Positions 4,720-31,849 of a stretch of DNA of 64,000 nucleotides are shown one piece after another. A program made the translations under genes and the position numbers. Where the stretch lies: NCBI GenBank assembly GCA_030739735.1, contig JASLYQ010000008.1, positions 29,747 to 93,746 of the forward strand, read 5' to 3'. The DNA comes from Alphaproteobacteria bacterium. GTDB taxonomy: Bacteria > Pseudomonadota > Alphaproteobacteria > UBA7887. The notes below the pieces were generated by a model. It made no database searches and was not told the origin of the DNA. It worked only from the letters and a program-made list of their open reading frames with translations. Within the stretch, counting starts at the first letter, position 1. Every line of letters begins with the position of its first letter.

Positions 4720-4776
4720 ACCTTCTGGATACTTGGTGCCCGCATGGCGCCTCTCCGCAATGACGATGGACGGATC

Positions 4777-5250
4777 ATGGAACGTGTGCCCATGACCGCG
4801 ACGGGCTATCAACGGCTCGAAGCGGAATTGAAGAAGTTGAAGAGCGAAGACCGACCGGCCGTGATCCGGGCGATCTCGGAGGCGCGTGAACACGGCGATC
4901 TGTCCGAGAATGCTGAGTATCACGCTGCCCGTGAGCGCCAAAGCTTCATTGAGGGCCGAGTGCGCGAGATTGAAGACAAGCTCGGTCGCGCCCAGGTGAT
5001 CGATGTCGACAAGCTGTCGGGCGAGACGGTCAAGTTCGGCGCTGCCATCACATTGGTAGATGAAGATACCGGCGAGGAAGTCACCTATCAACTGGTCGGC
5101 GTCGATGAAGCGGATGTCGCGGAGGGACGACTCTCGATCACGGCGCCGATCGCGCGCGCGGTGATCAACAAGTCTGTTGGCGATAGCGTCATCGTCGAAA
5201 CACCCGCGGGCACCAAAGGCTACGAGATTGTCTCCGTGGACTTTCGGTGA
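4777..5250 (+). CDS. greA: Transcription elongation factor GreA
   Basis: MERVPMT start chosen at ATG 4777; [16 protein letters not shown] motif; usual carB-greA order. Confidence 0.97.
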
Positions 5251-6209: not shown

Positions 6210-6241
6210 GTAAAGACTGCAGCATAGCAGGAGCCAACATC

Positions 6242-7204
6242 GTGCCCGACTGCCACCACTCCAAGGTTCTCATTCTCGGCTCAGGCCCCGCCGGCTTGAC
6301 CGCCGCCATCTATGCCGCTCGCGCCGATCTCGAGCCGCGGCTTGTGCACGGCATTCAGCCGGGCGGGCAAATGACCATCACCACCGATGTAGAGAACTAT
6401 CCAGGCTTCGCCGACGTGGTTCAGGGCCCTTGGCTAATGGAACAAATGACCGAGCAGGCACGCAAGGTAGGCACCGACTTCGTCAACGATATCGTCACTG
6501 CGGTCGACCTCAGCCGGCGACCCTTCGAGGCGACGGGTGACGGCGGCGATGCTTATCTTGGTGATGCCCTGATCATCGCCACTGGCGCCCAGGCGCGCTG
6601 GCTGGGCCTGGAGTCCGAGTCCCGGCTGCAGGGATTTGGCGTCTCCGCCTGCGCCACCTGCGACGGATTTTTCTATCGCGGTCGCGAAGTGGTGGTCGTT
6701 GGTGGCGGCAACACGGCGGTAGAGGAAGCCTTGTTTCTCGCTAACCTTGCCTCGAAAGTGACCCTGGTACACCGGCGCGATGCTTTACGTGCCGAGCGAA
6801 TTCTACAAGAGCGCCTGCTGCGCCGCGATAAGGTCGAGATAGCCTGGAACAGCGTCGTCGAGGATATTCTCGCCCAAGGCATGCCGCCGACAGTAACAGG
6901 CGTGCGGCTGCGCAACGTAAAGAACAACGAGACCCGCGAGCTTACGACAGACGGCGTGTTCATCGCCATCGGCCACAACCCCGTCACGGATCTCTTCGCC
7001 GGCCAGGTTGATGTGGACGACGATGGCTACATCCGCACCGCACCGAATAGTACAGTGACAAATATTGCCGGCGTGTTTGCCGCGGGCGACGTTCAGGACA
7101 AGCGTTTCCGCCAGGCAGTCACCGCCGCCGGCAGTGGTTGCATGGCCGCTTTGGAGGCAGAGCACTTCCTGGCCTCCGCGGAGGTAGCGGCAGCGGCCGA
7201 ATAA
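6242..7204 (+). CDS. trxB: Thioredoxin-disulfide reductase
   Basis: GSGPAG, CATCDG redox motif, GGGNTA, FAAGDV..RQAVTAAG; GTG start at 6242 after GGAG. Confidence 0.97.
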   Translation: MPDCHHSKVLILGSGPAGLTAAIYAARADLEPRLVHGIQPGGQMTITTDVENYPGFADVVQGPWLMEQMTEQARKVGTDFVNDIVTAVDLSRRPFEATGDGGDAYLGDALIIATGAQARWLGLESESRLQGFGVSACATCDGFFYRGREVVVVGGGNTAVEEALFLANLASKVTLVHRRDALRAERILQERLLRRDKVEIAWNSVVEDILAQGMPPTVTGVRLRNVKNNETRELTTDGVFIAIGHNPVTDLFAGQVDVDDDGYIRTAPNSTVTNIAGVFAAGDVQDKRFRQAVTAAGSGCMAALEAEHFLASAEVAAAAE

Positions 7205-7219
7205 GGGCTAAGATCACCT

Positions 7220-8110
7220 ATGGACTGGGATAAGCTTCGCATATTCCACGTTGTCGCCGGGGCCGGCAGCTTTACGCATGCAGGCGACTCTCTCGATCTC
7301 AGCCAATCGGCAGTGAGCCGGCAAATTCGTAGCCTCGAAGAAACCCTGAAAGTACCTCTGTTCCACCGCCACGCACGCGGGCTTATTCTGACCGAACAAG
7401 GCGAGTTGTTGCACCAAACCACGAGCGAGGTCTTCGCTAAGCTGACCGCAGCCGAAATGTTGCTCAGTGAAAGCAAGGAGCGGCCGCAGGGCCTGTTGCG
7501 TATCAACACTACCGTCGGTTTCGGCTCCATGTGGTTGACTGGCGTTATCAGCGAGTTTCTCGACAATTACCCGGATATCGCAGTGGCGCTACTGGTCGGT
7601 GAGGACGAGCTTGATTTGTCGATGCGCGAGGCCGACGTCGCCATCCGTATGGCGCCACCACGCCAGCCTGACCTGATCCAGCGCCGGCTTTTCCGGGGGC
7701 GCTTTGCAGTTTTCGCTATCGCTGACTACCTCAATCGCTTCGGCACACCTCGCAGTATGGAAGATTTGACCGGTCACCGCGTCGTTACCTATGGCGACCG
7801 GGTCTCGATTCCGTTTCTGCACATCAATTGGCTGGCAGATGCCCTACGTGAGATCGATGCCGAATTCCAACCCGCCTTCACCGTCAACAACCTGTACGGC
7901 ATCCTGCGCGCAGTCGAGACGGGCATCGGCATCGCCCTCCTGCCTGCGTTCATGGGTAGGCAGAACCCGCAATTGGTGCGCATCCTGCCGGAGGCTGAAC
8001 CACCGGCGGCAGACGGCTACTTCGTCTACCCAGAAGAACTCAAACAGTCGCAGCGGGTCATGGTCTTCCGCGACTTTCTGCTCAGAAAATTGACTGAGGA
8101 GCCGCTTTGA
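7220..8110 (+). CDS. LysR-family regulator (VtlR/LsrB-like)
   Basis: MDWDKLRIFHVVAGAGSFTHA HTH; position directly after trxB matches the alphaproteobacterial trxB-vtlR/lsrB pair. Confidence 0.9.
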   Translation: MDWDKLRIFHVVAGAGSFTHAGDSLDLSQSAVSRQIRSLEETLKVPLFHRHARGLILTEQGELLHQTTSEVFAKLTAAEMLLSESKERPQGLLRINTTVGFGSMWLTGVISEFLDNYPDIAVALLVGEDELDLSMREADVAIRMAPPRQPDLIQRRLFRGRFAVFAIADYLNRFGTPRSMEDLTGHRVVTYGDRVSIPFLHINWLADALREIDAEFQPAFTVNNLYGILRAVETGIGIALLPAFMGRQNPQLVRILPEAEPPAADGYFVYPEELKQSQRVMVFRDFLLRKLTEEPL

Positions 8111-8433
8111 GGAGCAGCCGTCTCGGTTCAATGACTCAGTAAAATTTTTGATTGAAGATGCCCAGCCAGTTGACTCGCGAGAAGCGGCAGGCCCTCCGCA
8201 CAAGATGACAGTTCAGTATCATACTAATCAACTTGATTTTACCTTGACTGGCTATATAGGTAACCCGCGGCGGGTTTAAAATAATGTCTGGAGAAATCTA
8301 CCAAAATTTTGTGCCAGTTGTGGAGGCTCGACTCACAAAACAGAAATGCGATCTGGCAAATCTCCCATCGCGCACAATAGCTCCGTCTAGAGTCAAGATC
8401 AGCCCAGCCTCGGCTGGTGCCTCTACACCGCGG

Positions 8434-9396
8434 CTACATGAACAAGCGGCGGTCCTGGGGCAGATCTGCGTAAAGGTGGGCCACGAACTCGCCATAGCCG
8501 TTGTAAAGCTTGGTCGCAACACGATCGCCCGTGCCTAACTCGCGCTCGCTCGCCTGGCTCCAGCGTGGGTGCGAAAACTCGGGGTTGACGTTAGCCCAGA
8601 AGCCGTACTCGGTAGGTCCGATTTCCTCCCAGAATGTCTTTGGCCGGTTCTCGGCAAACATGAAGCGAACGATCGACTTGATATGCTTAAAGCCGTACTT
8701 CCAGGGCACGGCAAGGCGCAGCGGTGAGCCATATTGCTTCGCCATCGGCGCGCCATAGGCGCCAGTGACAATCAAAGCCAGTTCATTAGTCGCTTCGGCC
8801 AGCGTCAGCGCTTCAGTGTAAGGCCAGGGAAAGTACCTCTGACGCTGGTTGCGACCTACCTCGGAATCAAAAAAGGTTTGCATGACCAGAAACTTGGCCG
8901 AGGCCAGGGGACGCGCAAACTCGACGAGCCTGGCCAGCGGAAACCCGGTCCACGGTATGGTCATGGCCCAGGCCTCGACGCAGCGGTGGCGCGTGATGCG
9001 CTCCTCCAGTGGCATACGCCGGATCAGATCCTCGGCCTCAATGTGGATTTTCTTCTCCACGAGGCCATCGATAGTCACATTCCACGGCGTGATGGACAGA
9101 TCTTGCGCCGCTTGCCAGATATTCTTATGGGAGCCAAACTCATAGAAATTGTTGTGGGTGCCGGTGATGCTCTTCTTGGTCACCGAGAACTCGACAGACA
9201 GCGCCTCTTTGCGGGGTGCCGGATAGAGATCGGCCGTGGGAGGCTCCTCGGCCGCGGCGAGATTGCCGAGCGGCGTTGCCGCGAGCAGGCTTCCCGCGGC
9301 CAGTCCCTTGGCTAGCTGACGACGATCAACATACTGCGACTCGGGCGTTACAGCGCGCTCCGACAAGCCCCAGCCGGGTAGGGTCTTGATCAACAT
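8434..9396 (-). CDS. msrP: Periplasmic protein-methionine-sulfoxide reductase catalytic subunit MsrP (YedY)
   Basis: Start at ATG 9396 (MLIKT..WGLSERAVTPE); twin-Arg DRRQL signal; NNFYEFG, HRCVEAW (Mo-Cys), VPWKYGFKHIKSIV, YGFWANVNP. Confidence 0.93.
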   Translation of the reverse strand: MLIKTLPGWGLSERAVTPESQYVDRRQLAKGLAAGSLLAATPLGNLAAAEEPPTADLYPAPRKEALSVEFSVTKKSITGTHNNFYEFGSHKNIWQAAQDLSITPWNVTIDGLVEKKIHIEAEDLIRRMPLEERITRHRCVEAWAMTIPWTGFPLARLVEFARPLASAKFLVMQTFFDSEVGRNQRQRYFPWPYTEALTLAEATNELALIVTGAYGAPMAKQYGSPLRLAVPWKYGFKHIKSIVRFMFAENRPKTFWEEIGPTEYGFWANVNPEFSHPRWSQASERELGTGDRVATKLYNGYGEFVAHLYADLPQDRRLFM

Positions 9397-9481
9397 TGAT
9401 GGTCTCCACCCTCTTAGCCCCGCGCTGCACGGCGCATGGCGACAGCCCTCGCAAAATCGCTCACCGGAACTTGAGCAACGT

Positions 9482-11539
9482 TCAGGCCGTGCGCAACCAC
9501 ACCGACGTGTCGTGAATGACCGCTCCGCCATTGGGCGGCCCAGCCTCGGCCGCGATCAGAGTGTTGAGCCCTACCCCACCCTCGAAGGCGCCGTTGGGCC
9601 AAATGCTCTCAACCACCACGACGCCGGGCTGCAAGCCGTCAAACAGTTTGGCGTGCACGACGACCTCGCCACGGTCGTTGCCCATGCGTAGACGCCGGCC
9701 CTCCCCGGCGCCAAGTCGCGCCGCATCGTCAGGGTGCAGCAACGCCCGCGGCCGCTCCTCCTTCTTCTGGCTCGTTGGCGTCTCGGTGAAGCTCGAGTTC
9801 AGATAGTTGTGCGCCGGTGCCGCCACCAGGCGGAAGGGATGGCGCTCGTCCGCAGCCTCGATGATATTGAAATGATCTGGCAAGTCGGGCATGCGCTCAT
9901 GATTCGGGCCGATGCGCGACCAATCTGGTGAGAAATGAAACTTGCCGTCAGACGTCGGAAAGCCGTCGAGAAAATGCGAGGTGGCGAAGTCCGGCTGGCA
10001 ATCGATCCAGTGGGTCTCCTGCAACTCAGTCAAGGTACCCCAACCCGATGACTGCAAGGTCGCGTCGATAATCTCATTGGTGCTCATAGCAAAGCCCGGA
10101 TGCTCGGCACCCAAACGCTTAGCCAGCGCACAAATCAACTCGTGGTTAGAGCGCGTCTCCGCCAGCGGCTCGATCACCCTCGGCCCCAGTATAATGTGTT
10201 GGTGACCGCCTCCCTGGTAGATGTCGTCGTGCTCGAGGAAGGTGGTGGCCGGTAGTACCAGGTCCGCGTGAGCAGCGGTCTCAGTCATGAACTGTTCGTG
10301 CACGCAAAGAAACAGGTCATCGCGTGCGAGGCCATCGTTGACCAGTGTCGATTCAGGCGCCACCACAGCTGGGTTGGTGTTCTGCACCAGCATCGCCGTG
10401 ACAGGCGGACCGTCGCCGAGATCTTTCTTGTCGCCGGTGAGCACCGGGCCGATGCGCGACATATCCAAGACGCGCACACCCTTATCACAGGCATCCAGGC
10501 CCTCGATCAGCGTCTTGTCCCAGTGATAGATATCGCCGTTGTTGTAGAAGGCGCCGCCGCCTTCGTGCCGCCAAGAGCCGGTAACAGTAGCCAGCGACAT
10601 CGCCGCATGCATATTGGCAGCGCCGTTGCGCGAGCGTGTGAAGCCGTAGCCGAGGCGAATATAACTGCGCTCCGTACTGCCGTAGAGGCTGGCAAATTCC
10701 TCGATTGCGTTTTCGTCCAGACCGGTGATCTCCGCCGCCCAGACGGGGTTTCGCGTGCTCAGGTGTTGATGCAGGCGCTCCGGACAATCGGCATAGCGAG
10801 CCATGTAGTCATGATCGGCGTAACCGTCGCGGAACAGCACATGCATGACCGCACAGGCCAGCGCGCCGTCCGTGCCCGGGCGCAACGCCAGATGCGTGTC
10901 GGCAACGGCAGCTGTCCGCGTGCGGTAGGGATCGATCACTACAAGCTTAGCACCGCGCGCCTTGCGCGCCCGCTGGATATGGGTCATGGCGTTGACCTGG
11001 GTTGAGGCCGGGTTGCCACCCCACATGACGATCAGATCGGACTGCGCCATCTCGCGCGGATCGGGACCGAGCACCCGGCCGGCCCCCGCCGTCCAGCCAG
11101 CAATTGCCAAAGCGTTGCAGATGGTGCTGTGCTGACCCGAATAGCCCATCACATGCCGCAGCCGATTGATGCCATCGCGCTGCAACAATCCCATGGTGCC
11201 GGCATAGAAATAGGGCCACACCGTCTCGGCGCCGTAGCGCTGGGTCGCAACGGTGAATGCCTCCGCAAGTTCGTCGAGGGCATCGTCCCAGGCAATGGGC
11301 TGAAAGCTGCCGTCGGCCATCTTACGCAGAGGCTCACGCAGACGGCCGGGGTTGTGCACGCGCTCAGCGTAACGCGCCACCTTGGCACAGACAACACCCG
11401 CCGTGTAGCTGTTGTCCCGGGCGCCATGGATCCGGCCGATAGTCGCAGCATCGAGACGCTCGACCTCCAGCGCACAAGTACTCGGACAATCGTGCGGACA
11501 GGCTGAAAACGCAATATCGTGGGAGATGTCACTATCCAT
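9482..11539 (-). CDS. Uncharacterised molybdopterin (bis-MGD) oxidoreductase, MopB family, with N-terminal Fe-S motif
   Basis: ACPHDCPSTC...CAKV N-terminal cluster motif, ADLVLPATTFLE, C-terminal molydopterin-binding domain; no Tat signal. Confidence 0.88.
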   Translation of the reverse strand: MDSDISHDIAFSACPHDCPSTCALEVERLDAATIGRIHGARDNSYTAGVVCAKVARYAERVHNPGRLREPLRKMADGSFQPIAWDDALDELAEAFTVATQRYGAETVWPYFYAGTMGLLQRDGINRLRHVMGYSGQHSTICNALAIAGWTAGAGRVLGPDPREMAQSDLIVMWGGNPASTQVNAMTHIQRARKARGAKLVVIDPYRTRTAAVADTHLALRPGTDGALACAVMHVLFRDGYADHDYMARYADCPERLHQHLSTRNPVWAAEITGLDENAIEEFASLYGSTERSYIRLGYGFTRSRNGAANMHAAMSLATVTGSWRHEGGGAFYNNGDIYHWDKTLIEGLDACDKGVRVLDMSRIGPVLTGDKKDLGDGPPVTAMLVQNTNPAVVAPESTLVNDGLARDDLFLCVHEQFMTETAAHADLVLPATTFLEHDDIYQGGGHQHIILGPRVIEPLAETRSNHELICALAKRLGAEHPGFAMSTNEIIDATLQSSGWGTLTELQETHWIDCQPDFATSHFLDGFPTSDGKFHFSPDWSRIGPNHERMPDLPDHFNIIEAADERHPFRLVAAPAHNYLNSSFTETPTSQKKEERPRALLHPDDAARLGAGEGRRLRMGNDRGEVVVHAKLFDGLQPGVVVVESIWPNGAFEGGVGLNTLIAAEAGPPNGGAVIHDTSVWLRTA

Positions 11540-21870: not shown

Positions 21871-22158
21871 CTAGAGCCCTGCCAGCCAACCACTAATGAT
21901 AACATCTTGGAGAAACCACAAGCCTACGATGGCAATCAGCGGCGAAAAGTCGATGCCCCCAGTGGCTGGTAGAAAACGGCGGATACGTCGCAACAGGGGT
22001 TCGGTAAGCACATAGAGCGCATTTCCGACTGCATAGACGAACTTGTTGCGTGTGTTGACCACGTTGAAGGCCATCAACCAACTTAGAATCGCCTGAGCAA
22101 CGATAATGCCAATGTAAAGGCCGATGAGCTTATCGACAAAACTCAACAAATCGAGCAT
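21871..22158 (-). CDS. yggT: YggT family membrane protein
   Basis: ILSWL.AFNVVN, LTEPLLRRIRRFLP..GGIDFSP. Confidence 0.93.
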   Translation of the reverse strand: MLDLLSFVDKLIGLYIGIIVAQAILSWLMAFNVVNTRNKFVYAVGNALYVLTEPLLRRIRRFLPATGGIDFSPLIAIVGLWFLQDVIISGWLAGL

Positions 22159-22181
22159 GGATGTGGCGGGCCTCGAAGGGA

Positions 22182-22210
22182 TTTACGGTGGGCGGGACGC
22201 AGTATATAAC
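22182..22210 (+). promoter_or_regulatory. Putative sigma70 promoter of tRNA-Ala
   Basis: TTTACG, 17 nt spacer, TATAAC, about 50 nt upstream of the tRNA. Confidence 0.5.
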
Positions 22211-22260
22211 ATGCGCCCGCTGGGGCCAGGGCTGAATCTTCGGCCGTTTCTGGCGCCTGT

Positions 22261-22336
22261 GGGGCCGTAGCTCAGTTGGGAGAGCGCGACGTTCGCAATG
22301 TCGAGGTCAGGGGTTCGATTCCCCTCGGCTCCACCA
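22261..22336 (+). tRNA. tRNA-Ala (anticodon CGC)
   Basis: 76 nt cloverleaf; acceptor GGGGCCG/CGGCTCC with G3:U70; anticodon arm CGACG-TTCGCAA-TGTCG; GTTCGA T-loop; encoded CCA. Confidence 0.98.
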
Positions 22337-22337
22337 C

Positions 22338-22496
22338 CTATCTCTCATAATATTCGGCGGAGCCAAAGGTTTGGTCGAGCACGACACGTCCCTTGTGGGC
22401 GATCGCGATCGCACAACCCAGCTGCTCAGTCTGCCGCATCTGGTAACCGAGCCACTGCGGAACATACGCCGCCGCCGCTTTCAGCCATCCATCCAT
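22338..22496 (-). pseudogene. N-terminal stub of a beta-lactamase-family serine hydrolase
   Basis: ATG 22496 after GGGGGAG: MDGWLKAAAAYVPQWLGYQMRQTEQLGCAIAIAHKGRVVLDQTFGSA, then stop after 52 aa, before any SxxK motif, right next to the tRNA 3' end. Confidence 0.75.
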
Positions 22497-22523
22497 TACG
22501 CTCCCCCGAACGAGTCCTCCGTC

Positions 22524-22552
22524 ATTATAGCGCGGCTTAGAGGCGCAGTCAG
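22524..22552 (-). promoter_or_regulatory. Putative sigma70 promoter of the hydrolase stub
   Basis: Minus strand CTGACT, 17 nt spacer, TATAAT. Confidence 0.55.
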
Positions 22553-22662
22553 AGCACGCAGGTGTTGAGAGTCCACGGGACTTGCACCAGCGCGACTAAC
22601 CACATACCTAATCTGTGAATGATGGGTATTCCCCACTGCCATTGCGAAGAGAGATTAAACGG

Positions 22663-23085
22663 GTGCTGCTCAAACTCTCAAAAAAGGAGATCGCGGCGGT
22701 CGAGGCGGTTCTCGACATCGCCTTGAACGGTGGCGGCGAGCTCGTGCAGTCAGCCGATATCACCGCCCGCCAGGGGATTCCGCCACGCTATCTCGAACCG
22801 ATCCTGCAAAAGCTTGGCCGCGCAGAGGTGTTGGTCGGGGTGCGCGGGCCGGGGGGCGGCTACCGCCTAGCGCGCGAGCGCCGACGCATTACGCTGTGGC
22901 AACTGGTCGACGCGATGCGCCCTGAAACCGATGTTCAGACAACACCCAATTCCGATGCTCTGGCTGACACGCTGGCCATTATCGAAGCCGATGTCCGCAC
23001 CCGCCTCGATGCGATAACCATAGAAGCGCTGTGTTGGGGAAAGGCGCCGCCCAAGCATGCTCCCAACCGCGACTTCATCATATGA
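22663..23085 (+). CDS. Rrf2-family regulator (CymR-like, no three-Cys Fe-S motif)
   Basis: [23 protein letters not shown] winged HTH; single Cys; C-terminus DFII; ATGA overlap with cysK. Confidence 0.9.
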
Positions 23086-24038
23086 CGGAACCGGTGAGCG
23101 TGCGCGGCCATATCTATGGCAGCCTATTGGAGACCATCGGGGCAACCCCGCTCGTAAGCCTGTCGCGGCTGGCGGCGGATGAGGGTTGCTTGGCAGACAT
23201 TGCCGGAAAGTGTGAGTTCTTTAACCCCTTGTCGTCGGTCAAGGACCGTATCGGCCTGGCCATGATCGAGCAAGCCGAGGCAGCCGGCGAAATTGGGCCC
23301 GGCACCGTTATCGTGGAGCCTACCTCCGGCAATACAGGCATCGCGCTCGCTTTCGTCTGTGCCACCAAGGGCTACCGTCTGATCCTGACCATGCCCGAGA
23401 GCATGTCGGCCGAGCGTGGGCGCATGGTGCGCCTGTTCGGCGCTGAGATCGAATTGACACCCTCGGGCAAGGGTATGCAGGGCGCCATCGCGCGAGCGGA
23501 GGAGCTGCTCGCAGAGCTGCCCGACGCCTACATGCCGCAGCAGTTTCGCAACCCCTCAAATCCGGACATCCACGCCCATACCACGGCCGAAGAGCTATGG
23601 CAGGACAGCGCGGGCGCCATCGACGTGCTGGTCAGCGCCGTCGGCACCGGCGGTACCATCACTGGTATTGCCACAGTGCTGAAATCGCGCAAGCCATCCT
23701 TGCGAGCCATTGCGATTGAACCCGAAGACAGCCCGGTGCTTTCCGGTGGCCCGGCCGGCCAGCACCAGATCCAGGGCATCGGCGCCGGTTTCGTGCCCAA
23801 GGTGCTAGATACCGACATCATCGACGAGGTGGTGCGTATCGGCAATCATACCGCCTTTTCGACCGCACGGCGTGCCGCCAGACTCGAAGGCCTACCGGTC
23901 GGCATCTCTTCCGGCTCAGCGCTTGCCGCGGCACTGGAGATCGGTTGCCGGCCGGCTATGGCTGGCAAACTGATTGTCGCCATCCTGCCCTCCTTCGCCG
24001 AGCGCTACCTCTCCTCGCCCCTGTTCGAAGGTCTATAA
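23082..24038 (+). CDS. cysK: Cysteine synthase A (O-acetylserine sulfhydrylase)
   Basis: [11 protein letters not shown] (PLP Lys), [21 protein letters not shown]. Confidence 0.97.
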
Positions 24039-24250
24039 GAACGGGGCCAAACGCGGTTTGGATTTACGTGGATATAAATAACATAATGAAAATGTCTTGA
24101 TATATTTTTCACATTCTTATTCTATTATTAGTATGTCACCACAGATCATATATGGTTTTTAATCATAATCACATTTTAAATACTGTGTAATCGGAGCATC
24201 AGGAGACTGTCGAGGCCTAACAGTCGAGCCGGCCCACTGGTGAGGACGAG

Positions 24251-24556
24251 ATGAGGGCAAAAAAAATCGCCACAGCGAATCGGGTCACGGATGGGCGGGT
24301 CGTCTTTCTGGATAACCGCGGTGCTTGGCACGAGTCAATGGAAGGGGCGCGCGTCGCCGATGATGAGGCAACCGCTGAAACTCTCGACGCGGATGCCAAG
24401 CTCGGTGAGGTCGCCAACCTGGTTATTGGCACCTATTTGATTGAAGTCGAGGATCAGCCCCTGCGCCCGAGCCGGTTGCGCGAACGTATCCGCGCCGCCG
24501 GTCCAACGGTTCAACTCGTGCTCAATCGGGCCCCAACGGCAATGGCGGCCAAGTAG
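24251..24556 (+). CDS. DUF2849 family protein
   Basis: TANRVTDGRVVFL...LRERIRAAGPTV; usual position before alphaproteobacterial sulfite reductase. Confidence 0.88.
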   Translation: MRAKKIATANRVTDGRVVFLDNRGAWHESMEGARVADDEATAETLDADAKLGEVANLVIGTYLIEVEDQPLRPSRLRERIRAAGPTVQLVLNRAPTAMAAK

Positions 24557-24560
24557 CGCG

Positions 24561-26198
24561 ATGTATCAATACGACGACCTTGATCAGGCCTTCATCGACA
24601 ACCGCACCGAGCAGTTCGCCGATCAGGTCGCACGTCGCCTCGACGGCAAGCTTAGCGAGGACCACTTCAGGCCCCTCAGGCTGATGAACGGACTCTATCT
24701 ACAGCTCCACGCCTACATGCTGCGGGTGGCGATTCCCTACGGCACGCTGACCTCCGCGCAGCTGCGCGGGCTCGCTACCGTCGCCCGGAAGTTCGACCGC
24801 GGCTATGGCCATTTCACCACGCGCCAGAACGTGCAGTTCAACTGGACGCGCCTCGACAACATGCCGGACATCCTCGCCGCTCTCGCCGAGATACAGATGC
24901 ATGCAGTGCAAACTAGCGGCAACTGTATCCGCAACGTCACCGCCGACCACCTGGCCGGCGTCGCGCCTGACGAAATTGAGGACCCCCGCCCCTGGTGTGA
25001 GATCATCCGCCAGTGGTCGTCGCTACACCCGGAGTTCACCTATCTGCCGCGCAAGTTCAAGATCGCCGTCGGCGGCGGACCGCGCGACCGGGCAGCCCTC
25101 AAGGTGCACGACATCGCACTCGAACTGCGCCGCAACGAGGCCGGAGAGATCGGCTTTGTGGTCATGGTTGGGGGCGGCCAGGGGCGCACGCCGAAGCTCG
25201 CCAAGACCATCCGAGCTTTCTTGCCCAAACAGCATCTGCTGTCCTATCTAGAAGCGATCCTGCGCATCTATAATCAACTCGGTCGGCGCGACAACAAGTA
25301 CAAGGCGCGTATTAAGATTCTTGTCGATGCCGTCGGCGTCCATCGCTTCGCCGAGATGGTCGAAGCGGAATGGACGCACCTGTATAACGGCGAACTAACC
25401 CTGAAAGCTGACGATATGGCGAAGATCATCACTGATTTTGCGCCCCCCGCCTATGCGAAAGCCGACCCCGCAGCAACCTCGGATGATCCCGCCATCATCG
25501 CCTGGTGCGAGCGCAATGTGCAGCCGCATAAGATACCAGACTATGCGAACGTTACCGTCTCGCTCAAGCCTATCGGCGGCGCACCTGGCGATGCCACAGA
25601 AGCGCAGATGGAAGTGGTCGCCGATCTTGCCGAGCGCTGGGGCTCTGGCGAGATCCGCGTCAGCCACGAGCAGAACCTAATTCTGCCAGATGTGCGCGAG
25701 AGCGATTTACCGACGCTATGGCGGGCGCTCAACGCAATGGAGTTGGCAACTCCCAATGCGGGACTTATCACCGATATCATCTCCTGCCCGGGCCTCGACT
25801 ATTGCGCACTGGCGACGGCGCGCTCGATTCCGGTCGCGCAAGAGATCAGTAAGCGCTTCGCCGACCTTGAGCGTCAGCACGATATCGGTGACCTCAAGAT
25901 CAAGATTTCCGGCTGTATCAACGCCTGCGGCCATCACCATATGGGCCATATTGGCATTCTCGGGGTCGATAAACGGGGCACGGAAGTCTACCAGATCACC
26001 CTCGGCGGCAGCGCCGAGAAAGATGCCTCGCTCGGCATCCTGGTCGGCCCCGGTTTTGCCGCAGATAAGATCGTCGATGCGGTCGAGGCCATCGTCACCA
26101 CCTATGTGGCCCTACGCCATGATGGCGAGAGCTTCCTCGACGCTTATCGCCGCGTTGGCCTCACACCCTTCAAGGAGGTGTTGTATGCCCCTGCTTAA
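24561..26198 (+). CDS. cysI: Siroheme/[4Fe-4S] sulfite reductase hemoprotein
   Basis: ATG 24561 MYQYDD; LRLMNGLYLQLHAYMLR, SCPGLDYC and SGCINACGHH ligand motifs. Confidence 0.95.
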   Translation: MYQYDDLDQAFIDNRTEQFADQVARRLDGKLSEDHFRPLRLMNGLYLQLHAYMLRVAIPYGTLTSAQLRGLATVARKFDRGYGHFTTRQNVQFNWTRLDNMPDILAALAEIQMHAVQTSGNCIRNVTADHLAGVAPDEIEDPRPWCEIIRQWSSLHPEFTYLPRKFKIAVGGGPRDRAALKVHDIALELRRNEAGEIGFVVMVGGGQGRTPKLAKTIRAFLPKQHLLSYLEAILRIYNQLGRRDNKYKARIKILVDAVGVHRFAEMVEAEWTHLYNGELTLKADDMAKIITDFAPPAYAKADPAATSDDPAIIAWCERNVQPHKIPDYANVTVSLKPIGGAPGDATEAQMEVVADLAERWGSGEIRVSHEQNLILPDVRESDLPTLWRALNAMELATPNAGLITDIISCPGLDYCALATARSIPVAQEISKRFADLERQHDIGDLKIKISGCINACGHHHMGHIGILGVDKRGTEVYQITLGGSAEKDASLGILVGPGFAADKIVDAVEAIVTTYVALRHDGESFLDAYRRVGLTPFKEVLYAPA

Positions 26199-27348
26199 GG
26201 ATGGCCGCAGCGTCGCCGATCCCTGGCTCCCAGTCGCAGACGGTGAGCCTCTGCCCGAGACCGGGCCCATGCTGCTGTCGATGGCGCGCTGGTGCGCAGA
26301 GCGCGAGACCTTACATGGCAACAATCGGACCTTCGGTGTCCGCCTCGCCAACGACCAGAGCCCGGATCTTCTGGCGGACGACGTCAAGCAGCTTGCGCTG
26401 ATCGTCTTAGATTTTCCCGACATCGCCGACGGCCGCGCCTATTCTCAGGCTCGCCTGCTGCGCGAGCGCTTTGGCTACCGCGGCGAGCTGCGTGCCGAGG
26501 GTGAAGTTCTGTATGACCAGTTATTACCCATGCAACGGGTCGGTTTCGATTCCTTCGACGTGGTGGAGCATGCAGATATCGAAACGGCACTCGCCGAAAT
26601 ACCCGTGTCGTATCAACCCACCGGCGCCGACGGCCAGACCGCTCTGTCGCTGCGTCGTGAGCGCCGTCGTCGTGATGCGCAGGTTGCCGGATTGCAGGCA
26701 GTGCACGGTGACACCGCCGGCGAGGCATTGTTGCGTGCCGTGATCACAGAGTCATTCCCAAGCCGCATTGCCGTGGTCTCGTCCTTCGGGACTGAGGCCG
26801 TGGTCATGCTGGACATGGTGGCGCGCATCGATCCCGCCACACCGGTTATCTTCCTCGACACCGACAAGCACTTCCCGGAGACCTTAGCCTATCATGAATC
26901 TCTGGTCGCCGAGCTTGGGCTTGAGGACGTACGCGATATCACCCCCGATGCGGTGGCGTTGGCGCACGAGGATGCGGCCGGCGATCTCTGGCGCCGTGAC
27001 GCCGACCGCTGCTGTCATCTGCGCAAAGTGGCGCCGCTCGCCCGTGCGCTCGAAGGCTTCGACGCTTGGGTAACGGGGCGTAAGCGCTTCCATGGCGACG
27101 TGCGCTCTGACCTGCCGCTTTTCGAAAACGACGGCAAGCGCATCAAGATCAACCCGCTTGCCGACTGGTCGGCAAACAAGGTCGCGGCCTGGATCGCCAC
27201 GCGCGGCCTTAGCACCCACCCCCTGCTTGCCGAGGATTTTGCCTCGATCGGCTGTGCCCCCTGCACGGCACCGGCCGATGCGAGAGGTGGCCGCTGGTCC
27301 GGCAGCGACAAGACCGAATGCGGCATCCATCAACGGCGGAAGACGTGA
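26185..27348 (+). CDS. cysH: DUF934 - APS reductase (CysH) fusion protein, 387 aa
   Basis: One ORF from ATG 26185 (AAGGAGG RBS). N-half has DUF934 motifs (LDFP.IADGRAYSQARLLRERFGYRGELRA.GEVL.DQL). C-half has SSFG, DTDKHFPET, RCCHLRKV, SIGCAPCT, ECGIH. Confidence 0.9.
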   Translation: MPLLKDGRSVADPWLPVADGEPLPETGPMLLSMARWCAERETLHGNNRTFGVRLANDQSPDLLADDVKQLALIVLDFPDIADGRAYSQARLLRERFGYRGELRAEGEVLYDQLLPMQRVGFDSFDVVEHADIETALAEIPVSYQPTGADGQTALSLRRERRRRDAQVAGLQAVHGDTAGEALLRAVITESFPSRIAVVSSFGTEAVVMLDMVARIDPATPVIFLDTDKHFPETLAYHESLVAELGLEDVRDITPDAVALAHEDAAGDLWRRDADRCCHLRKVAPLARALEGFDAWVTGRKRFHGDVRSDLPLFENDGKRIKINPLADWSANKVAAWIATRGLSTHPLLAEDFASIGCAPCTAPADARGGRWSGSDKTECGIHQRRKT

Positions 27349-28142
27349 CCGGTTCCCTCGACGCTCTTGAAAGCCAAAGCGTCTACATCCTGCGCGAGGC
27401 CTATGGCCGCATCTCGCCGACTATGTTGCTGTGGTCTCTGGGCAAGGACTCCAACGTCATGCTGTGGCTGGCGCGCAAGGCCTTTTGTGGGCATGTGCCC
27501 TTTGAGGTGGCGCATGTCGATACCGGCATGAAGTTCCCCGAGATGTATGCCTTCCGCGACCACTATGCCAGCGAATGGAATCTCGACCTGGTGGTGCGCA
27601 ATTGCCCGCCGGTCGAGGAGATCGATGCCTCGCTGCCGCCGGCCGCACGCTCGGCCGCGCGCAAGACGGCAGGGCTCAAAGCACTAATCGCCGAGAACGG
27701 CTACAATGGGGTCATCGCCGGCATCCGCCGCGACGAGGAAGTGGTGCGCGCGAAAGAACGCGTCTTCAGCCCGCGCGGCACCGACTCCCGCTGGGACTTC
27801 CGCGACCAGCCGGCTGAGCTGTGGGACCAGTACAAGACTGAGTTTCCCCCCGGCACCCATGTGCGCATCCACCCGCTGCTGCACTGGAGCGAAGTCGACA
27901 TCTGGCGTTACGTGGCGCGCGAGAACATTCCCGTGGTCGATCTCTATTTCGCCCGCGATGGCAAACGCTATCGCTCGCTCGGCGATCGCGACATCACCTT
28001 CCCGATGGTGAGTGAGGCCTCCAGCATCGACGAGATTATCAACGAGCTGGAGACCACGCACATTTCCGAGCGCGCAGGCCGCGCCATGGACCATGAGGCG
28101 GAAGATTCCTTCGAACGCCTGCGCAGCGAAGGCTATATGTAG
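27345..28142 (+). CDS. cysD: Sulfate adenylyltransferase subunit 2
   Basis: WSLGKDS PP-loop, [25 protein letters not shown]; GTGA overlap. Confidence 0.95.
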
Positions 28143-28143
28143 C

Positions 28144-29988
28144 ATGTCATATTTTAAAATTGGGGAGGCCGCACAGCTGCCGGTCGTCATCGTCGGCCAT
28201 GTTGATCATGGCAAGTCCACCCTGATCGGCCGCCTGCTGCACGATTCCGATAGCCTGCCCGAGGGCAGAATCGAAGCGGTGCGGGAGATGTGCCAACGCC
28301 GCAGCATGCCGTTCGAGTGGGCGTTCCTGATGGACGCCTTCCAGGCCGAGCGGGACCAGGGCATCACCATAGACACCACGCAAATCCAGTTTCGAACGCC
28401 CAAGCGTCCCTATCTCATCATCGACGCGCCGGGGCATCAGGAGTTCCTCAAGAACATGATCACCGGCGCCACCAATGCCACCGCGGCACTGCTGGTCATC
28501 GACGCCGAGGAAGGCGTGCGGGAGCAGACCCGGCGCCACGCCACGCTGCTCGGACTTTTGGGCGTGTGCCAGCTCGCGGTCGTGGTCAACAAGCTCGACC
28601 GCATCGCTTTCGATCGTTTACGCTTCGCTCAGGTTGCCGACGACGTACGTGGCTATCTCGGCGAGCTCGGCCTTGCGCCGAGCGCTGTCATTCCCGCCTC
28701 CGCCCGCGGCGGCGATAATGTCAGTAGCGCCAGCGAAAACACGCCCTGGTATGAGGGGCCCACGGTGCTCGAGGCGCTCGACAGCTTCACCGCGCGGCCC
28801 CAGGCGGACGAGCAGTCGCTGCGTCTGCCAATACAAGACGTCTACAAGTTCGACGAGCGCCGGCTGATTGCCGGGCGCATCGAGAGCGGACATCTCAGCA
28901 TAGGCGACGAGTTGGTTTTCGCACCCGACGATAAGCGCGCGCGTATTGCCAGCATCGAGAGCTGGAACGTGCCGCTACCGCAGGTCACGGCCAAGGCCGG
29001 CGAGTCGATCGCGCTGACCCTAGATCAGCAGATCTTCGTCGAGCGCGGTGCCATTGCTTATGCACCCGATTCACCGCCTCTCGTAGCGCGGCGGATACGC
29101 GCACGCCTGTTCTGGCTCGCCCGAGAGCCCTTGGAGGAGACACGCAAGCTAACGCTAAAGATCGGTACCGGACAGCATCCCGTGACCGTCACGACGATTC
29201 GCAGCGTGCTCGATTTCGAAAACCTCGAATCCCGACCCTCGCCACGCGCCGCACACAACGAGATCGCCGAAGTGATACTGGAAAGTGAACGGCCCTTGTT
29301 TATCGACGCTCACAACGACAATCCTGCCACCGGCCGCGGCGTGCTGGTCGCGGACTACGACGTGGTCGGCGGCTGCGTAATCCTCGGCGAGGTCGAGCCT
29401 GCGGCCGAGCTATACGCGGTCGCGCATCAGGTCGATGTCGATGCGCGCGCCATAGCGCTCGGCCATCGCGGCGGCGTGATCTGGCTTACCGGGTTATCGG
29501 GTGCCGGCAAATCCACACTCGCCATAGACCTCGAGGTGCGGCTTTTCAGCCGTAACATCCACGCCTTCGTGCTCGATGGCGACAATCTGCGCAAGCACCT
29601 CAGCAGCGATCTCGGCTTCGCGCCCGAAGACCGCACCGAAAACATCCGTCGTACCGCCGAGGCGGCACGCCTGTTTGCCGAAGCCGGAATGGTCGCCGTC
29701 GTCGCCCTGATCTCGCCATTGCGCGACGACCGTGACCGAGCCCGCACAATTGTCGGCAAGGAGTTTCACGAAGTGCATGTGCGCGCCGATCTGGAGACCT
29801 GCGAGGCGCGCGACCCGAAAGGGCTCTACGCTCGCGTCCGCTCCGGCCGTATCGCCAACTTCACCGGTATCGATTCGCCCTATGAGCCGCCGCACGCGCC
29901 AGAGTTGGTGATTGATACCGAAGCCATGTCGGTCACAGCCTGCCAGGAAGCGCTTGCCGCCTATGTCGAAAGCGCAGTGACACTATGA
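28144..29988 (+). CDS. cysNC: Bifunctional sulfate adenylyltransferase subunit 1 / APS kinase (CysNC)
   Basis: [18 protein letters not shown] GTPase motifs; C-terminal [27 protein letters not shown]. Confidence 0.95.
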
Positions 29989-30416
29989 GACGGCTACTGC
30001 ATCTGCCCGTCCAACCCACGGTGGTCAGCGGCTGGCAGGCCTGGGACATGCTCGCCGACGACCCCGACTCCATCTTGGTTGATCTGGGCTCGATAGGCTC
30101 CCCGGACCTGCGCGAGCTCAACAAGGTGCCCTCACACAGCGATGCCAGACCTGTCAACCACAGTACGCCCATCTTTCTGCTCAGTCAGACCGGCACGCAC
30201 GCAAGAAAAATCGCGGCAGCGTGGCTGGCGGACGGCTATGCCGGTGTCGCTGTGATCTCGGAGGGCGCTACCGGTTGGCAGGCCCTAGGCTTGCCTTGGA
30301 CGGAACCGACGCAGGCCGAGATAGCCCAACAGCAGGACGAAGCAGGCAAGCACGAAGAGCTTGTTGATGAACCAGTTGGTGGTCCAGATCGTCCACTCGG
30401 GCGCATCGAGAAATAA
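29985..30416 (+). CDS. Degenerate rhodanese-like protein (no catalytic Cys)
   Basis: [29 protein letters not shown] are recognisable; the active loop reads LLSQTGTHA; ATGA overlap with cysNC. Confidence 0.6.
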
Positions 30417-30662
30417 CGCCAGCTTGACCACCACGATGACGATCTCGGCAATCGACATGCCGAGCGCCAAGGCGATCGTGTAGCGCGGCTGCGCGAACAG
30501 TGCCCAGGCCAGCCACAAGTGGGCGACCCACCAGAAATCCCACCAGACATAGGTCGCCACGCCAACGCCTTCGGCCAGCGCATAAGCCACTGGAAAGGCG
30601 AACTTGACTGTCACGGTCCAGGCCGCCAGCAGGATCAGAAAATGCGCGATGAAGCGGATCAC
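30285..30662 (-). CDS. Hypothetical membrane protein (about 4 TM, 125 aa)
   Basis: Strongly hydrophobic, Trp-rich ORF; GTG start overlaps the stop of the AKR gene. Confidence 0.8.
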   Translation of the reverse strand: MIRFIAHFLILLAAWTVTVKFAFPVAYALAEGVGVATYVWWDFWWVAHLWLAWALFAQPRYTIALALGMSIAEIVIVVVKLALFLDAPEWTIWTTNWFINKLFVLACFVLLLGYLGLRRFRPRQA

Positions 30663-31849
30663 GTGGCCAAGCGGTAGTAGGCATCGAGCGTAAGCGCAGC
30701 GATGTCGAGACCGTGCGGGCAGGCGCCATGGCAGACCTTGTGGGTACATGTCGCGCAAGGTCCAGCGCCTTCGCCGAGCGCCGCATAGTCCGTGCGTGCC
30801 CGGACCTCGTCACCGTAATCGGTAGCGTACATGCGCGTACGCAGCACCTCGGTGATAGGGACGCCCGCCGGACAGGCTTGCGAGCAAGCGCCGCAGCCGG
30901 GGCGACAGTAGCGGTCTTCCTGTAATGCCGCATAGTGTGCCAGCAAACCAAAGTCACCGGGGCGCAGCGCCTGTTCGCCGGACGCCGCCATATATTCGTC
31001 GATTAGCGCCCGGCTAGTCATCGACACGATCAAGGAATCGACGCGCGGGCTCGACAGCACCCAGCGAAACGCAGCCTGGGCATAGGTACCACCGGTGCGC
31101 TCGAAAGGCCGCATATCATTGAGCCGCGCGCCCATCAGGACCTTCATGGCGACCACGCCGACGCCCTTCGCCTTCGCCTTCTCCAACACGCGCGGCAGCT
31201 CGGGCTGGATCGAGACGTAGTGCAGGGCGTGGCGCACCTGGGCGACGAAGTCCGGATCTTGTGCAAAGGTATAGGCGGCGAGCACAACATCGGCGAGATC
31301 GTTGTCGATGGCATAGTTCAGACACTCGGTCAGTGACGAGCCGTGTCCCGACATCCCACAAAAGCGGATCTTTCCCTGTTTCTTAGCGCGCTCGGTGAAA
31401 GCGTGCCATTCCGGGTTACGCAGTCGCTCGACGTCGTTGACAGAATGCAGAAAATAAATGTCGAGGTAATCGGTGCCGAGACGGCGCAGACTGCGTTCGA
31501 GAGCTGTCATCATATCGGCTTGGACAGCGCGCGCGCCGGCCTTGGTCTTGGACGCCAGCACAACGCGGTCACGCATGCCCCACAGACCCTTGCCCATAGC
31601 GGACTCGGCCGCGCCGAAGCGATAGCTTTCGGCAGTGTCGAAATATGTGACGCCACGATGGAGAGCGTAGCTGATCAGCTCGGGATCCGCCGAGAGGCTG
31701 GAGCCGAAGCCGATGTTCGAAACCTCGAGCCCAGTCGCACCCAGAGTAACCGTGCGCGCAGCGGCTGCAGCCGGCCGCGGCGCGGGGGCCCCGAGGGCCA
31801 ACGCCCCAACACCGAGAAACTGTCGCCGGTCGAGCATCGCCGCCTCCAC
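30659..31849 (-). CDS. Aldo/keto reductase with twin-Arg signal and C-terminal Fe-S motifs
   Basis: DRRQFLGVG; YFDTAESY, LASKT, YFLHSV catalytic residues; CRPGCGACSQACP and CATCTHKVCHGACP. Confidence 0.9.
   Translation of the reverse strand: MEAAMLDRRQFLGVGALALGAPAPRPAAAAARTVTLGATGLEVSNIGFGSSLSADPELISYALHRGVTYFDTAESYRFGAAESAMGKGLWGMRDRVVLASKTKAGARAVQADMMTALERSLRRLGTDYLDIYFLHSVNDVERLRNPEWHAFTERAKKQGKIRFCGMSGHGSSLTECLNYAIDNDLADVVLAAYTFAQDPDFVAQVRHALHYVSIQPELPRVLEKAKAKGVGVVAMKVLMGARLNDMRPFERTGGTYAQAAFRWVLSSPRVDSLIVSMTSRALIDEYMAASGEQALRPGDFGLLAHYAALQEDRYCRPGCGACSQACPAGVPITEVLRTRMYATDYGDEVRARTDYAALGEGAGPCATCTHKVCHGACPHGLDIAALTLDAYYRLAT

What the first reader, a model, noticed from the sequence alone, without database searches (positions are those of the whole stretch)
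26185..27348. DUF934 fused in frame to an Fe-S APS reductase (Rosetta-stone clue to DUF934 function)
Seen: one uninterrupted 387-aa ORF with a strong RBS, DUF934 first, an Arg-rich linker (LRRERRRRD, about 26647-26675), then CysH with CC...CxxC and ECGIH. Known: in alphaproteobacteria these are normally separate genes, usually cysI-cysH-DUF934, so the order is also reversed; DUF934 is uncharacterised. Inference: DUF934 physically couples APS reductase to the sulfite reductase, for example channelling sulfite or relaying electrons. I cannot say how rare the fusion is.
Basis: partly seen in the sequence, partly recalled or inferred. Interest (0 to 1): 0.65.

Follow-up and report, generated by a model that had tools for sequence, protein, structure and literature searches.

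The report
DUF934 fused to APS reductase
A marine alphaproteobacterium really does make one protein joining the little-understood DUF934 domain to its sulfate-assimilation enzyme APS reductase. The same fusion has arisen repeatedly, in both domain orders, in many other bacteria, so it is a useful functional clue and not a rarity.

Summary
Window 26185-27348 (+) is one 387-aa ORF with DUF934 (Pfam E 1e-31) followed by a CysH/PAPS_reduct domain (E 2e-39). The CysH part carries CC...CxxC and ECGIH, and an AAGGAGGT RBS precedes the start. Contigs from four independent marine metagenome studies match 26100-27400 exactly, so this is not an assembly artefact.

The fusion is not rare in absolute terms:
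- 114 of the 120 best database clusters carry both domains: 73 DUF934-CysH and 41 CysH-DUF934.
- Cultured Brevundimonas, Bradyrhizobium, Pelagibacterium and Maritalea have it.
- 7 of 160 DUF934-bearing species in an even alphaproteobacterial sample have it.
- A CysH tree needs at least 8 architecture changes.

- The order is not reversed. Adjacent separate DUF934→cysH is the commonest arrangement in my samples.
- The "Arg-rich linker" is DUF934's own basic tail.
- DUF934 is not wholly uncharacterised. Published knockouts place it at the sulfite→sulfide step.

Best reading: DUF934 is a cofactor-less accessory subunit of the CysJ-less sulfite reductase CysI. Fusion tethers APS reductase to CysI. 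This is inferred, not shown. Verdict: a new member of a known, recurrent architecture, of moderate interest.

The parts
26172..26179 (+). Shine-Dalgarno AAGGAGGT, 5 nt before the ATG at 26185
   Evidence: Read directly from the sequence.
26185..27348 (+). DUF934::CysH fusion ORF, 387 aa. It overlaps the cysI stop (26198) and the cysD start.
   Evidence: Identical in four independent assemblies.
26185..26679 (+). DUF934 domain, aa 1-165 (Pfam core aa 51-151 = 26335-26637). It carries the invariant FP..DGRAYS.ARLLRER...E.RA.G..L.DQ...R.G and YQP motifs.
   Evidence: Pfam E 1.1e-31. Alignment with 31 stand-alone DUF934 proteins. AF2 pLDDT 86, a (beta-alpha)5 fold.
26647..26673 (+). LRRERRRRD. This is the native basic C-terminal tail of DUF934 (R157 invariant) and forms the junction. 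It is not an added linker.
   Evidence: The HMM envelopes of the two domains overlap by 13 residues. It forms part of the modelled helix 153-174.
26662..27345 (+). CysH (Fe-S type APS/PAPS reductase) domain, aa 160-387 (Pfam core aa 195-363)
   Evidence: PF01507 E 2.4e-39. NF002537 scores 243 bits. Best PDB match is 7lhr, E 2.4e-43.
27010..27015 (+). Cys276-Cys277, the first pair of [4Fe-4S] ligands (CCHLRKV)
   Evidence: Sequence. Invariant in 41 homologues.
27253..27264 (+). Cys357-x-x-Cys360, the second pair of [4Fe-4S] ligands (GCAPCT)
   Evidence: Sequence. Invariant in 41 homologues.
27316..27330 (+). ECGIH, the catalytic cysteine (Cys379) loop
   Evidence: Sequence. E378, C379 and G380 are invariant in 41 homologues; I381 and H382 are nearly invariant.
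24251..24556 (+). DUF2849 gene, the conserved partner of CysJ-less CysI
   Evidence: Pfam E 1.8e-22.
24561..26198 (+). cysI, sulfite reductase haemoprotein (NIR_SIR plus NIR_SIR_ferr)
   Evidence: Pfam E 8.7e-65 and 2.5e-36. The genome has no CysJ-type FAD_binding_1.
27318..28142 (+). cysD. The start is either ATG 27318 or GTG 27345, the latter in a GTGA overlap with the fusion's stop.
   Evidence: NF003587 scores 335 bits. Sequence.
28147..29988 (+). cysNC: sulfate adenylyltransferase large subunit fused to APS kinase
   Evidence: Pfam GTP_EFTU plus APS_kinase. NF004035 E 2.6e-171.
23082..24038 (+). cysK-like PLP enzyme. With the Rrf2 regulator gene (22615-23085) it heads the cluster.
   Evidence: Pfam PALP E 3.8e-68 and Rrf2 E 1.4e-22.

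Best explanation
Window 26185-27348 encodes a genuine bifunctional polypeptide. A DUF934 domain (aa 1-165) is joined seamlessly, through its own basic tail, to an Fe-S type thioredoxin-dependent APS reductase, CysH (aa ~160-387). The gene sits in a translationally coupled cysK - DUF2849 - cysI - [DUF934::cysH] - cysD - cysNC cluster in a CysJ-less marine alphaproteobacterium.

The fusion arose by loss of the stop and spacer between two genes that are very often adjacent in this same order. It belongs to a recurrent, polyphyletic architecture that also exists in the opposite order, CysH-DUF934. All of the above is shown, with confidence about 0.95.

The mechanism is inferred, with confidence about 0.4. 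DUF934 is a cofactor-less alpha/beta accessory subunit that the CysJ-less sulfite reductase CysI needs for sulfite→sulfide. Because the fused copy is the only DUF934 in the genome, it must still serve CysI. That tethers APS reductase to the sulfite reductase complex, so toxic sulfite is made next to the enzyme that consumes it. The conserved Arg/Asp/Tyr-Gln cluster lies at the C-terminal ends of the parallel strands. It is the likely site for binding an oxyanion or for docking a partner. The overall confidence given (0.55) is a blend of these two levels.
For: Shown:
- ORF, domains and motifs.
- Identical sequence in four independent assemblies.
- It is the only DUF934 and the only cysH in a 98.8%-complete genome. 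The genome has no CysJ.
- 114 of the 120 best 90%-identity clusters carry both domains: 73 in the order DUF934-CysH and 41 in the order CysH-DUF934.
- The fusion occurs in the window's own genus, in three other genera of its family and in unrelated families. It also occurs in Brevundimonas, Rhizomicrobium and Hyphomicrobiaceae genomes.
- In every fused genome of the even sample the fused copy is the sole DUF934.
- The CysH-domain tree needs at least 8 architecture changes. Well-supported branches alone force at least 3 for the N-type and at least 2 for the C-type.
- Separate DUF934 and cysH genes lie adjacent, with short gaps, in both orders.
- The reverse fusion in Pelagibacterium halotolerans sits in the same cysG-DUF2849-cysI context.

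Literature:
- P. stutzeri delta-psest_2088 (DUF934) is not rescued by sulfate or sulfite. Sulfide and cysteine partially restore growth, and thiosulfate also restores it (PMC5554334).
- DUF934 is cofit with sulfate-assimilation genes in Pseudomonas, Marinobacter and Cupriavidus (10.1101/072470).

Structure:
- The DUF934 model has pLDDT 86 and a (beta-alpha)5 fold. Its weak best matches are half of the phosphate-binding TIM barrels.
- The invariant residues sit at strand C-termini.
Against: - No direct evidence that DUF934 binds CysI or CysH.
- The full-length AF2 model has pTM 0.63 and a low-confidence segment at aa 131-155. It therefore predicts no fixed interface between the two domains.
- Linker lengths vary widely between lineages, as expected for a loose tether.
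- The fusion is a minority form: about 4% of DUF934-bearing species in the even sample, and 1 of the best 150 representatives at 50% identity.
- In many genomes cysH and DUF934 are unlinked.
- No credible CysI-DUF934 fusion was found. The two candidates are frameshift artefacts.
- The sulfite non-rescue result shows that DUF934 does more than channel sulfite.
Confidence: 0.55

Rival explanations
1. Neutral gene fusion. Two translationally coupled neighbours of the same pathway lost the stop and spacer between them. Nothing beyond co-expression is gained, and DUF934 does not physically connect CysH with CysI.
For: - Adjacent separate DUF934→cysH genes with short gaps are common, so fusion is mutationally easy.
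- The fused form is a minority.
- Linkers are variable, and no confident interdomain interface is predicted.
Against: - Fusions arose repeatedly in both orders. They persist across deep clades, for example a 37-member C-type clade and family-level relatives at 51% identity.
- The tight DUF934-cysH adjacency in both orders is itself non-random.
Confidence: 0.25
2. DUF934 is a maturation factor for the cofactors of CysI and CysH, either siroheme or the [4Fe-4S] clusters that both enzymes carry. It is not a stoichiometric subunit, and fusion merely delivers it to one client.
For: - Thorgersen et al. raise siroheme biosynthesis as a possibility (PMC5554334).
- Both partners are Fe-S enzymes.
- DUF934 has a nucleotide- or phosphate-binding-like alpha/beta fold.
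Against: - Catalytic chaperones are rarely fused 1:1 to a client.
- DUF934 has no conserved cysteine for cluster handling.
- CysH lacks siroheme. It is nevertheless the only credible fusion partner found here: both apparent CysI-DUF934 fusions are frameshift artefacts.
Confidence: 0.15
3. DUF934 primarily serves APS reductase, for example by docking its reductant or handling the Cys-S-sulfonate intermediate. This would parallel the C-terminal thioredoxin-like domain of plant APS reductase.
For: - CysH is the only credible fusion partner found, in both orders.
- In the C-type fusion, DUF934 occupies the position that the Trx-like domain holds in plant APR (established knowledge of plant APR).
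Against: - The DUF934 deletion is not rescued by sulfite, which lies downstream of CysH (PMC5554334).
- DUF934 has no redox cysteines (10.1101/072470).
- In Pseudomonas, DUF934 follows cysI with no other sulfate-assimilation gene downstream (10.1101/072470). In many alphaproteobacterial genomes cysH and DUF934 are unlinked.
Confidence: 0.1
4. Assembly artefact or pseudogene: a frameshift or chimeric join created an apparent fusion.
For: Such artefacts do exist in this gene neighbourhood. Two apparent CysI-DUF934 'fusions' in the databases are frameshifted reads of low-coverage contigs.
Against: - Four independent assemblies are identical.
- Both domains are full length with every invariant residue.
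- The junction aligns residue by residue with dozens of fused homologues.
Confidence: 0.01

Closest known systems
DUF934-CysH and CysH-DUF934 fusion proteins already in public databases, auto-named 'phosphoadenylyl-sulfate reductase'. Examples: Brevundimonas sp. CEF1 and MYb52, Bradyrhizobium sp. LM3.2, Rhizomicrobium, Pelagibacterium halotolerans, Maritalea.
   Same: They have the same two Pfam domains in one ORF, the same Fe-S cysteines and the same cysI-linked context. The window protein is 44-80% identical to the N-type members (one cluster, P0002, is 94% identical).
   Different: The window's junction is among the shortest, with no inserted linker. It also has a 6-residue shorter loop after CxxC. 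The Devosiaceae-type members have the opposite domain order.
[quoted passage not shown]
   Same: The whole 165-aa domain is 48-57% identical to the 31 aligned stand-alone proteins and keeps all invariant residues. The position directly after cysI is also the same.
   Different: Here the domain is covalently joined to CysH. The stand-alone proteins end 5-15 residues after the LRR motif.
Bacterial Fe-S APS reductase CysH (M. tuberculosis 7lhr; P. aeruginosa 2goy)
   Same: Same fold family, CC...CxxC cluster ligands and catalytic ECG[IL]H loop.
   Different: The window protein has an N-terminal 165-aa DUF934 domain. Substrate preference (APS versus PAPS) was not measured, and the operon also encodes an APS kinase domain.
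Plant-type APS reductase (CysH domain plus a C-terminal thioredoxin/glutaredoxin-like domain)
   Same: A CysH catalytic domain is fused to an accessory domain of the same pathway.
   Different: DUF934 is not thioredoxin-like and has no CxxC. TIGR00424 scores 69 bits against a cut-off of 553. The window protein is not a member.

Membership tests
DUF934 (Pfam PF06073) | Match to the family HMM above the gathering score | tested here: met
   109.3 bits against a cut-off of 25, covering profile positions 1-104 of 107. 112.4 bits in the genome search.
DUF934 (Pfam PF06073) | Family-invariant residues: FP..DGR, A.RLL..R, E.RA.G, L.DQ, R.G, YQ(P) | tested here: met
   All 24 invariant columns of a 32-sequence alignment are present in the window protein.
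DUF934 (Pfam PF06073) | Gene lies immediately downstream of a CysJ-less cysI | tested here: met
   cysI at 24561-26198 overlaps the start at 26185. The genome has no FAD_binding_1.
DUF934 (Pfam PF06073) | Required for sulfite→sulfide in vivo | not testable with these tools
   Known only from P. stutzeri delta-psest_2088 and RB-TnSeq.
Fe-S type assimilatory APS reductase (CysH) | PAPS_reduct domain / CysH equivalog HMM above cut-off | tested here: met
   PF01507 scores 135.6 bits against a cut-off of 22.5. NF002537 scores 243 against 154.
Fe-S type assimilatory APS reductase (CysH) | Four cluster cysteines, CC...CxxC | tested here: met
   C276, C277, C357 and C360 are present and invariant in 41 homologues. 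They align with 7lhr.
Fe-S type assimilatory APS reductase (CysH) | Catalytic cysteine in a C-terminal ECG[IL]H loop | tested here: met
   ECGIH at aa 378-382.
Fe-S type assimilatory APS reductase (CysH) | Score above the TIGR02055 APS_reductase subfamily cut-off | tested here: not met
   153.8 bits against a cut-off of 235.3. The subfamily model is narrower than the motif-based definition, so APS preference is inferred from the cysteines only.
Fe-S type assimilatory APS reductase (CysH) | Prefers APS over PAPS as substrate | not testable with these tools
   Needs an enzyme assay. The operon also encodes an APS kinase domain in CysNC.
Plant-type APS reductase (CysH + Trx-like domain) | C-terminal thioredoxin/glutaredoxin-like domain; TIGR00424 above cut-off | tested here: not met
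   69.4 bits against a cut-off of 553.2. No thioredoxin domain was found.

The most novel reading that the evidence does not exclude
DUF934 is the physical bridge of an APS reductase-sulfite reductase 'sulfite metabolon' in CysJ-less bacteria. It binds CysI as an essential activating subunit and recruits CysH. In about 4% of DUF934-bearing alphaproteobacterial species that recruitment has been hard-wired by fusion, in either order. Sulfite would then pass between the two Fe-S enzymes without being released. The conserved arginine-rich pocket of a half-barrel fold, possibly completed by dimerisation, would be the oxyanion relay site.
Probability: 0.3. Interest if true: 0.6.

Novelty: new member of a known kind. 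Interest (0 to 1): 0.35.

Why it matters
DUF934 is found across alpha-, beta- and gammaproteobacteria. There are 3,045 cluster representatives at 50% identity. It is genetically required for sulfate assimilation, yet it has no biochemical function.

The recurrent fusions to CysH, in both orders, are the first concrete pointer to a physical partner. I found them discussed in no paper of the searchable library. Combined with the published sulfite non-rescue phenotype, they give a sharply testable model: DUF934 bridges APS reductase and sulfite reductase.

There is also a practical annotation point. These proteins are auto-named simply 'phosphoadenylyl-sulfate reductase', which hides the DUF934 half. 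Genomes that carry the fusion can then look as if they lack DUF934.

For this particular window the finding is ordinary. It is one more member of an existing architecture.

Tried and rejected
1. Assembly artefact: rejected.

2. CysI-DUF934 fusions as a second Rosetta stone.
- A word-indexed search with a 932-aa synthetic CysI+fusion query, scored on the DUF934 region, found nothing of 513 aa or longer.
- The exhaustive search then returned two candidates, P0279 and P0319, with NIR_SIR plus DUF934.
- On inspection both are frameshift artefacts. After '...KIKI', P0279 switches into the out-of-frame open frame that also runs upstream of the window's own DUF934 start. Its contig has 3x coverage, and cysI is split into two gene calls.

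3. Other DUF934 architectures. Twelve long open frames containing DUF934 in the class sample all turned out to be out-of-frame read-through of cysI in high-GC DNA. The DUF934::rhodanese fusion mentioned in an earlier scan note could not be verified.

4. Homology of DUF934 to a solved structure.
- Sequence and profile searches of the PDB found nothing, even at E ≤ 10.
- Foldseek gave only weak partial matches: TM about 0.5 to half of ribulose-phosphate 3-epimerase-type TIM barrels, and worse matches to receiver domains. That is enough to name a fold class but not a function.

5. A confident interdomain interface from AF2. pTM was 0.63 and the junction has low confidence.

6. Promoter and terminator scan of 22000-31000: nothing above the shuffled expectation.

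7. Metatranscriptome runs held none of the sampled words, so expression was not examined.
Full report
**Observation.** Window 26185-27348 (+) is a single uninterrupted ORF of 387 codons plus a stop.
- The frame is open from 25690. The start at ATG 26185 is fixed by the AAGGAGGT box at 26172-26179 and by the N-terminus MPLLKDG, which is conserved at the start of stand-alone DUF934 proteins.
- Pfam finds DUF934 (PF06073) at aa 51-151, E 1.1e-31. It finds PAPS_reduct (PF01507) at aa 195-363, E 2.4e-39.
- The CysH half passes NCBIfam NF002537 with 243 bits against a cut-off of 154. Its best solved relative is the M. tuberculosis enzyme 7lhr, E 2.4e-43.
- Cys276-Cys277, Cys357-x-x-Cys360 and the ECGIH loop are present. 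The five cysteines, E378 and G380 are invariant in 41 fused homologues; I381 and H382 are nearly so. These motifs are the signature of the Fe-S (APS-type) reductases (established knowledge).
- The subfamily model TIGR02055 is not reached (154 against 235 bits), and the substrate was not measured.

**Artefact test.**
- The stretch is held at 99-100% of sampled words by 20 marine or seawater metagenome runs from 13 studies.
- Contigs assembled independently from four of them, in four different studies, match 26100-27400 with no difference and no gap.
- The junction also aligns residue by residue with dozens of fused homologues.
- The fusion is therefore real.

**Context.** The cluster runs, on the + strand:

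| Gene | Coordinates |
|---|---|
| Rrf2 regulator | 22615-23085 |
| cysK | 23082-24038 |
| DUF2849 | 24251-24556 |
| cysI | 24561-26198 |
| DUF934::cysH | 26185-27348 |
| cysD | 27318 or 27345 to 28142 |
| cysNC | 28147-29988 |
| weak rhodanese-like ORF | 29985-30416 |

- Gene ends overlap or nearly abut.
- The 98.8%-complete genome has no second DUF934 or cysH.
- It has no CysJ-type flavoprotein.

**How rare is the fusion?** It is not rare in absolute terms.
- Of the 120 best 90%-identity clusters, 114 carry both Pfam domains.
- Classified by HMM, 73 are DUF934-CysH and 41 have the opposite order, CysH-DUF934, about 427 aa long.
- Fused genes occur in cultured organisms: Bradyrhizobium sp. 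LM3.2, Pelagibacterium halotolerans and Maritalea, and Brevundimonas sp. CEF1 and MYb52. They also occur in a Rhizomicrobium MAG. All are auto-named 'phosphoadenylyl-sulfate reductase'.
- In relative terms the fusion is a minority. In an evenly drawn sample of 401 alphaproteobacterial species, 160 have DUF934. Five of those have the N-type fusion and two the C-type. The ORFs were verified.
- Only one CysH fusion appears among the best 150 of 3,045 DUF934 representatives at 50% identity.

**Gene order.** That does not hold.
- In the even sample, adjacent separate genes run DUF934→cysH in 26 genomes and cysH→DUF934 in 2.
- Among 80 named loci the counts are 34 and 14. The second order is typical of Stappia, Roseibium, Phyllobacterium, Yoonia and Jannaschia.
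- Each separate-gene order has its fused counterpart. The window's fusion simply keeps the commoner order.

**The 'Arg-rich linker'.**
- LRRERRRRD aligns with the native basic tail of stand-alone DUF934, for example ...ALRHRRVAAAE. R157 is an invariant family residue.
- The HMM envelopes of the two domains overlap by 13 residues.
- The junction is therefore seamless. Other lineages have inserted linkers of up to about 70 residues.

**Independent origins.**
- Opposite domain orders cannot come from one fusion event.
- A maximum-likelihood tree of 124 CysH domains needs at least 8 changes of architecture. Well-supported branches alone force at least 3 for the N-type and at least 2 for the C-type. 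Stand-alone CysH proteins nest among fused ones.
- The fusion has persisted in the window's family down to 51% identity.
- Stand-alone genes are under-sampled in this tree, so the counts are lower bounds.

**What DUF934 is.**
- AF2 models it confidently (pLDDT 86, pTM 0.77) as a five-stranded parallel (beta-alpha)5 domain.
- Sequence and profile searches of the PDB find nothing.
- Foldseek finds only weak partial similarity (TM about 0.5) to half of the phosphate-binding TIM barrels: ribulose-phosphate epimerase, TenI, IMPDH and QPRT.
- The invariant residues D82-G83-R84, R90, R95, E101, R103, G106, D111, R118 and Y143-Q144 lie at or after the C-terminal ends of the strands. In such folds that is the usual ligand site (inference).
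- There is no conserved cysteine or cofactor motif, so a direct electron-relay role is unlikely.
- In the full-length model both domains are confident. However, pTM is 0.63 and aa 131-155 have low confidence, so no fixed interdomain interface is predicted.

**What is already known.**
- Price et al. (bioRxiv 10.1101/072470) found DUF934 cofit with sulfate-assimilation genes in Pseudomonas, Marinobacter and Cupriavidus. They called it an accessory protein for sulfite reduction.
- Thorgersen et al. (PMC5554334) deleted psest_2088. Sulfate and sulfite do not rescue growth. Sulfide and cysteine partially restore it, and thiosulfate also restores it. That places DUF934 at the sulfite→sulfide step.
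- None of the papers that mention DUF934 (6 in the searchable library), nor the one that mentions DUF2849, discusses a CysH fusion.

**Synthesis.**
- Genetics ties DUF934 to CysI. The recurrent fusions, in both orders, tie it physically to CysH.
- In every fused genome of the even sample the fused copy is the only DUF934. It must therefore still do the CysI-linked job.
- The most economical model is that DUF934 is a non-redox accessory subunit of the CysJ-less sulfite reductase, and that it also anchors APS reductase. Fusion hard-wires that anchoring.
- Pure sulfite channelling cannot be the whole story, because exogenous sulfite does not rescue the knockout.
- Rival readings are a neutral fusion of coupled neighbours (0.25), a cofactor-maturation role (0.15), a role primarily for CysH (0.1) and an artefact (0.01).

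**A caution found on the way.** Two database proteins look like CysI-DUF934 fusions but are frameshift artefacts. P0279 switches, after '...KIKI', into the out-of-frame reading that is also open upstream of the window's own DUF934 start. It comes from a 3x-coverage contig in which cysI is split. I found no credible CysI-DUF934 fusion.

**Verdict.** The gene is a new member of a known, recurrent architecture. It has moderate interest as a testable clue to the function of DUF934.

Noticed in passing
P0261 (database protein, 303 aa): A tandem DUF934-DUF934 protein with two full copies in one chain. Together with the half-barrel-like (beta-alpha)5 model, it hints that DUF934 works as a dimer.
   Followed up: partly
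P0279 / L110:3858-5849 and P0319: Apparent CysI-DUF934 fusions in public protein sets are frameshift artefacts. High-GC cysI has a long out-of-frame open frame that runs into the DUF934 start, so a single indel creates a false fusion. The window shows the same open frame (ORF 25690..27348).
   Followed up: yes
window 29985-30416 (+): The last ORF of the cluster is weakly rhodanese-like (Pfam 20.0 bits, below the 22.2 cut-off). It has Ser where the catalytic Cys should be (LLSQTGTHA), so it is probably an inactive rhodanese-homology domain. An earlier scan note reports a DUF934::rhodanese fusion in another genome, which I could not verify.
   Followed up: partly
L011 (Pelagibacterium halotolerans CP085243.1), 4406-10715: The reverse fusion sits in the cluster cysG - DUF2849 - cysI - [cysH::DUF934] - FNR-like Pyr_redox_2 - 2Fe-2S ferredoxin. 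That points to a ferredoxin/FNR pair, not DUF934 or DUF2849, as the electron supply for this type of CysI.
   Followed up: no
window 22615-24038 (+): An Rrf2-family regulator gene overlaps the start of cysK at the head of the cluster.
   Followed up: no
window 28147-29988 (+): CysN is fused to an APS kinase (CysC) domain, although the CysH has the Fe-S cysteines of APS-type reductases. PAPS may therefore be made for sulfation, or the reductase may accept both substrates.
   Followed up: no
window 27253-27300 (+): The loop between CxxC and the RxGRW motif of CysH is 6 residues shorter than in five of the six other CysH sequences aligned.
   Followed up: no
G245:C75:15436-16653 and G346:C55:20871-22094: In two species of one genus, DUF934 and cysH lie in the same frame, separated by a single TAG. 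They are one substitution away from the fused state.
   Followed up: no
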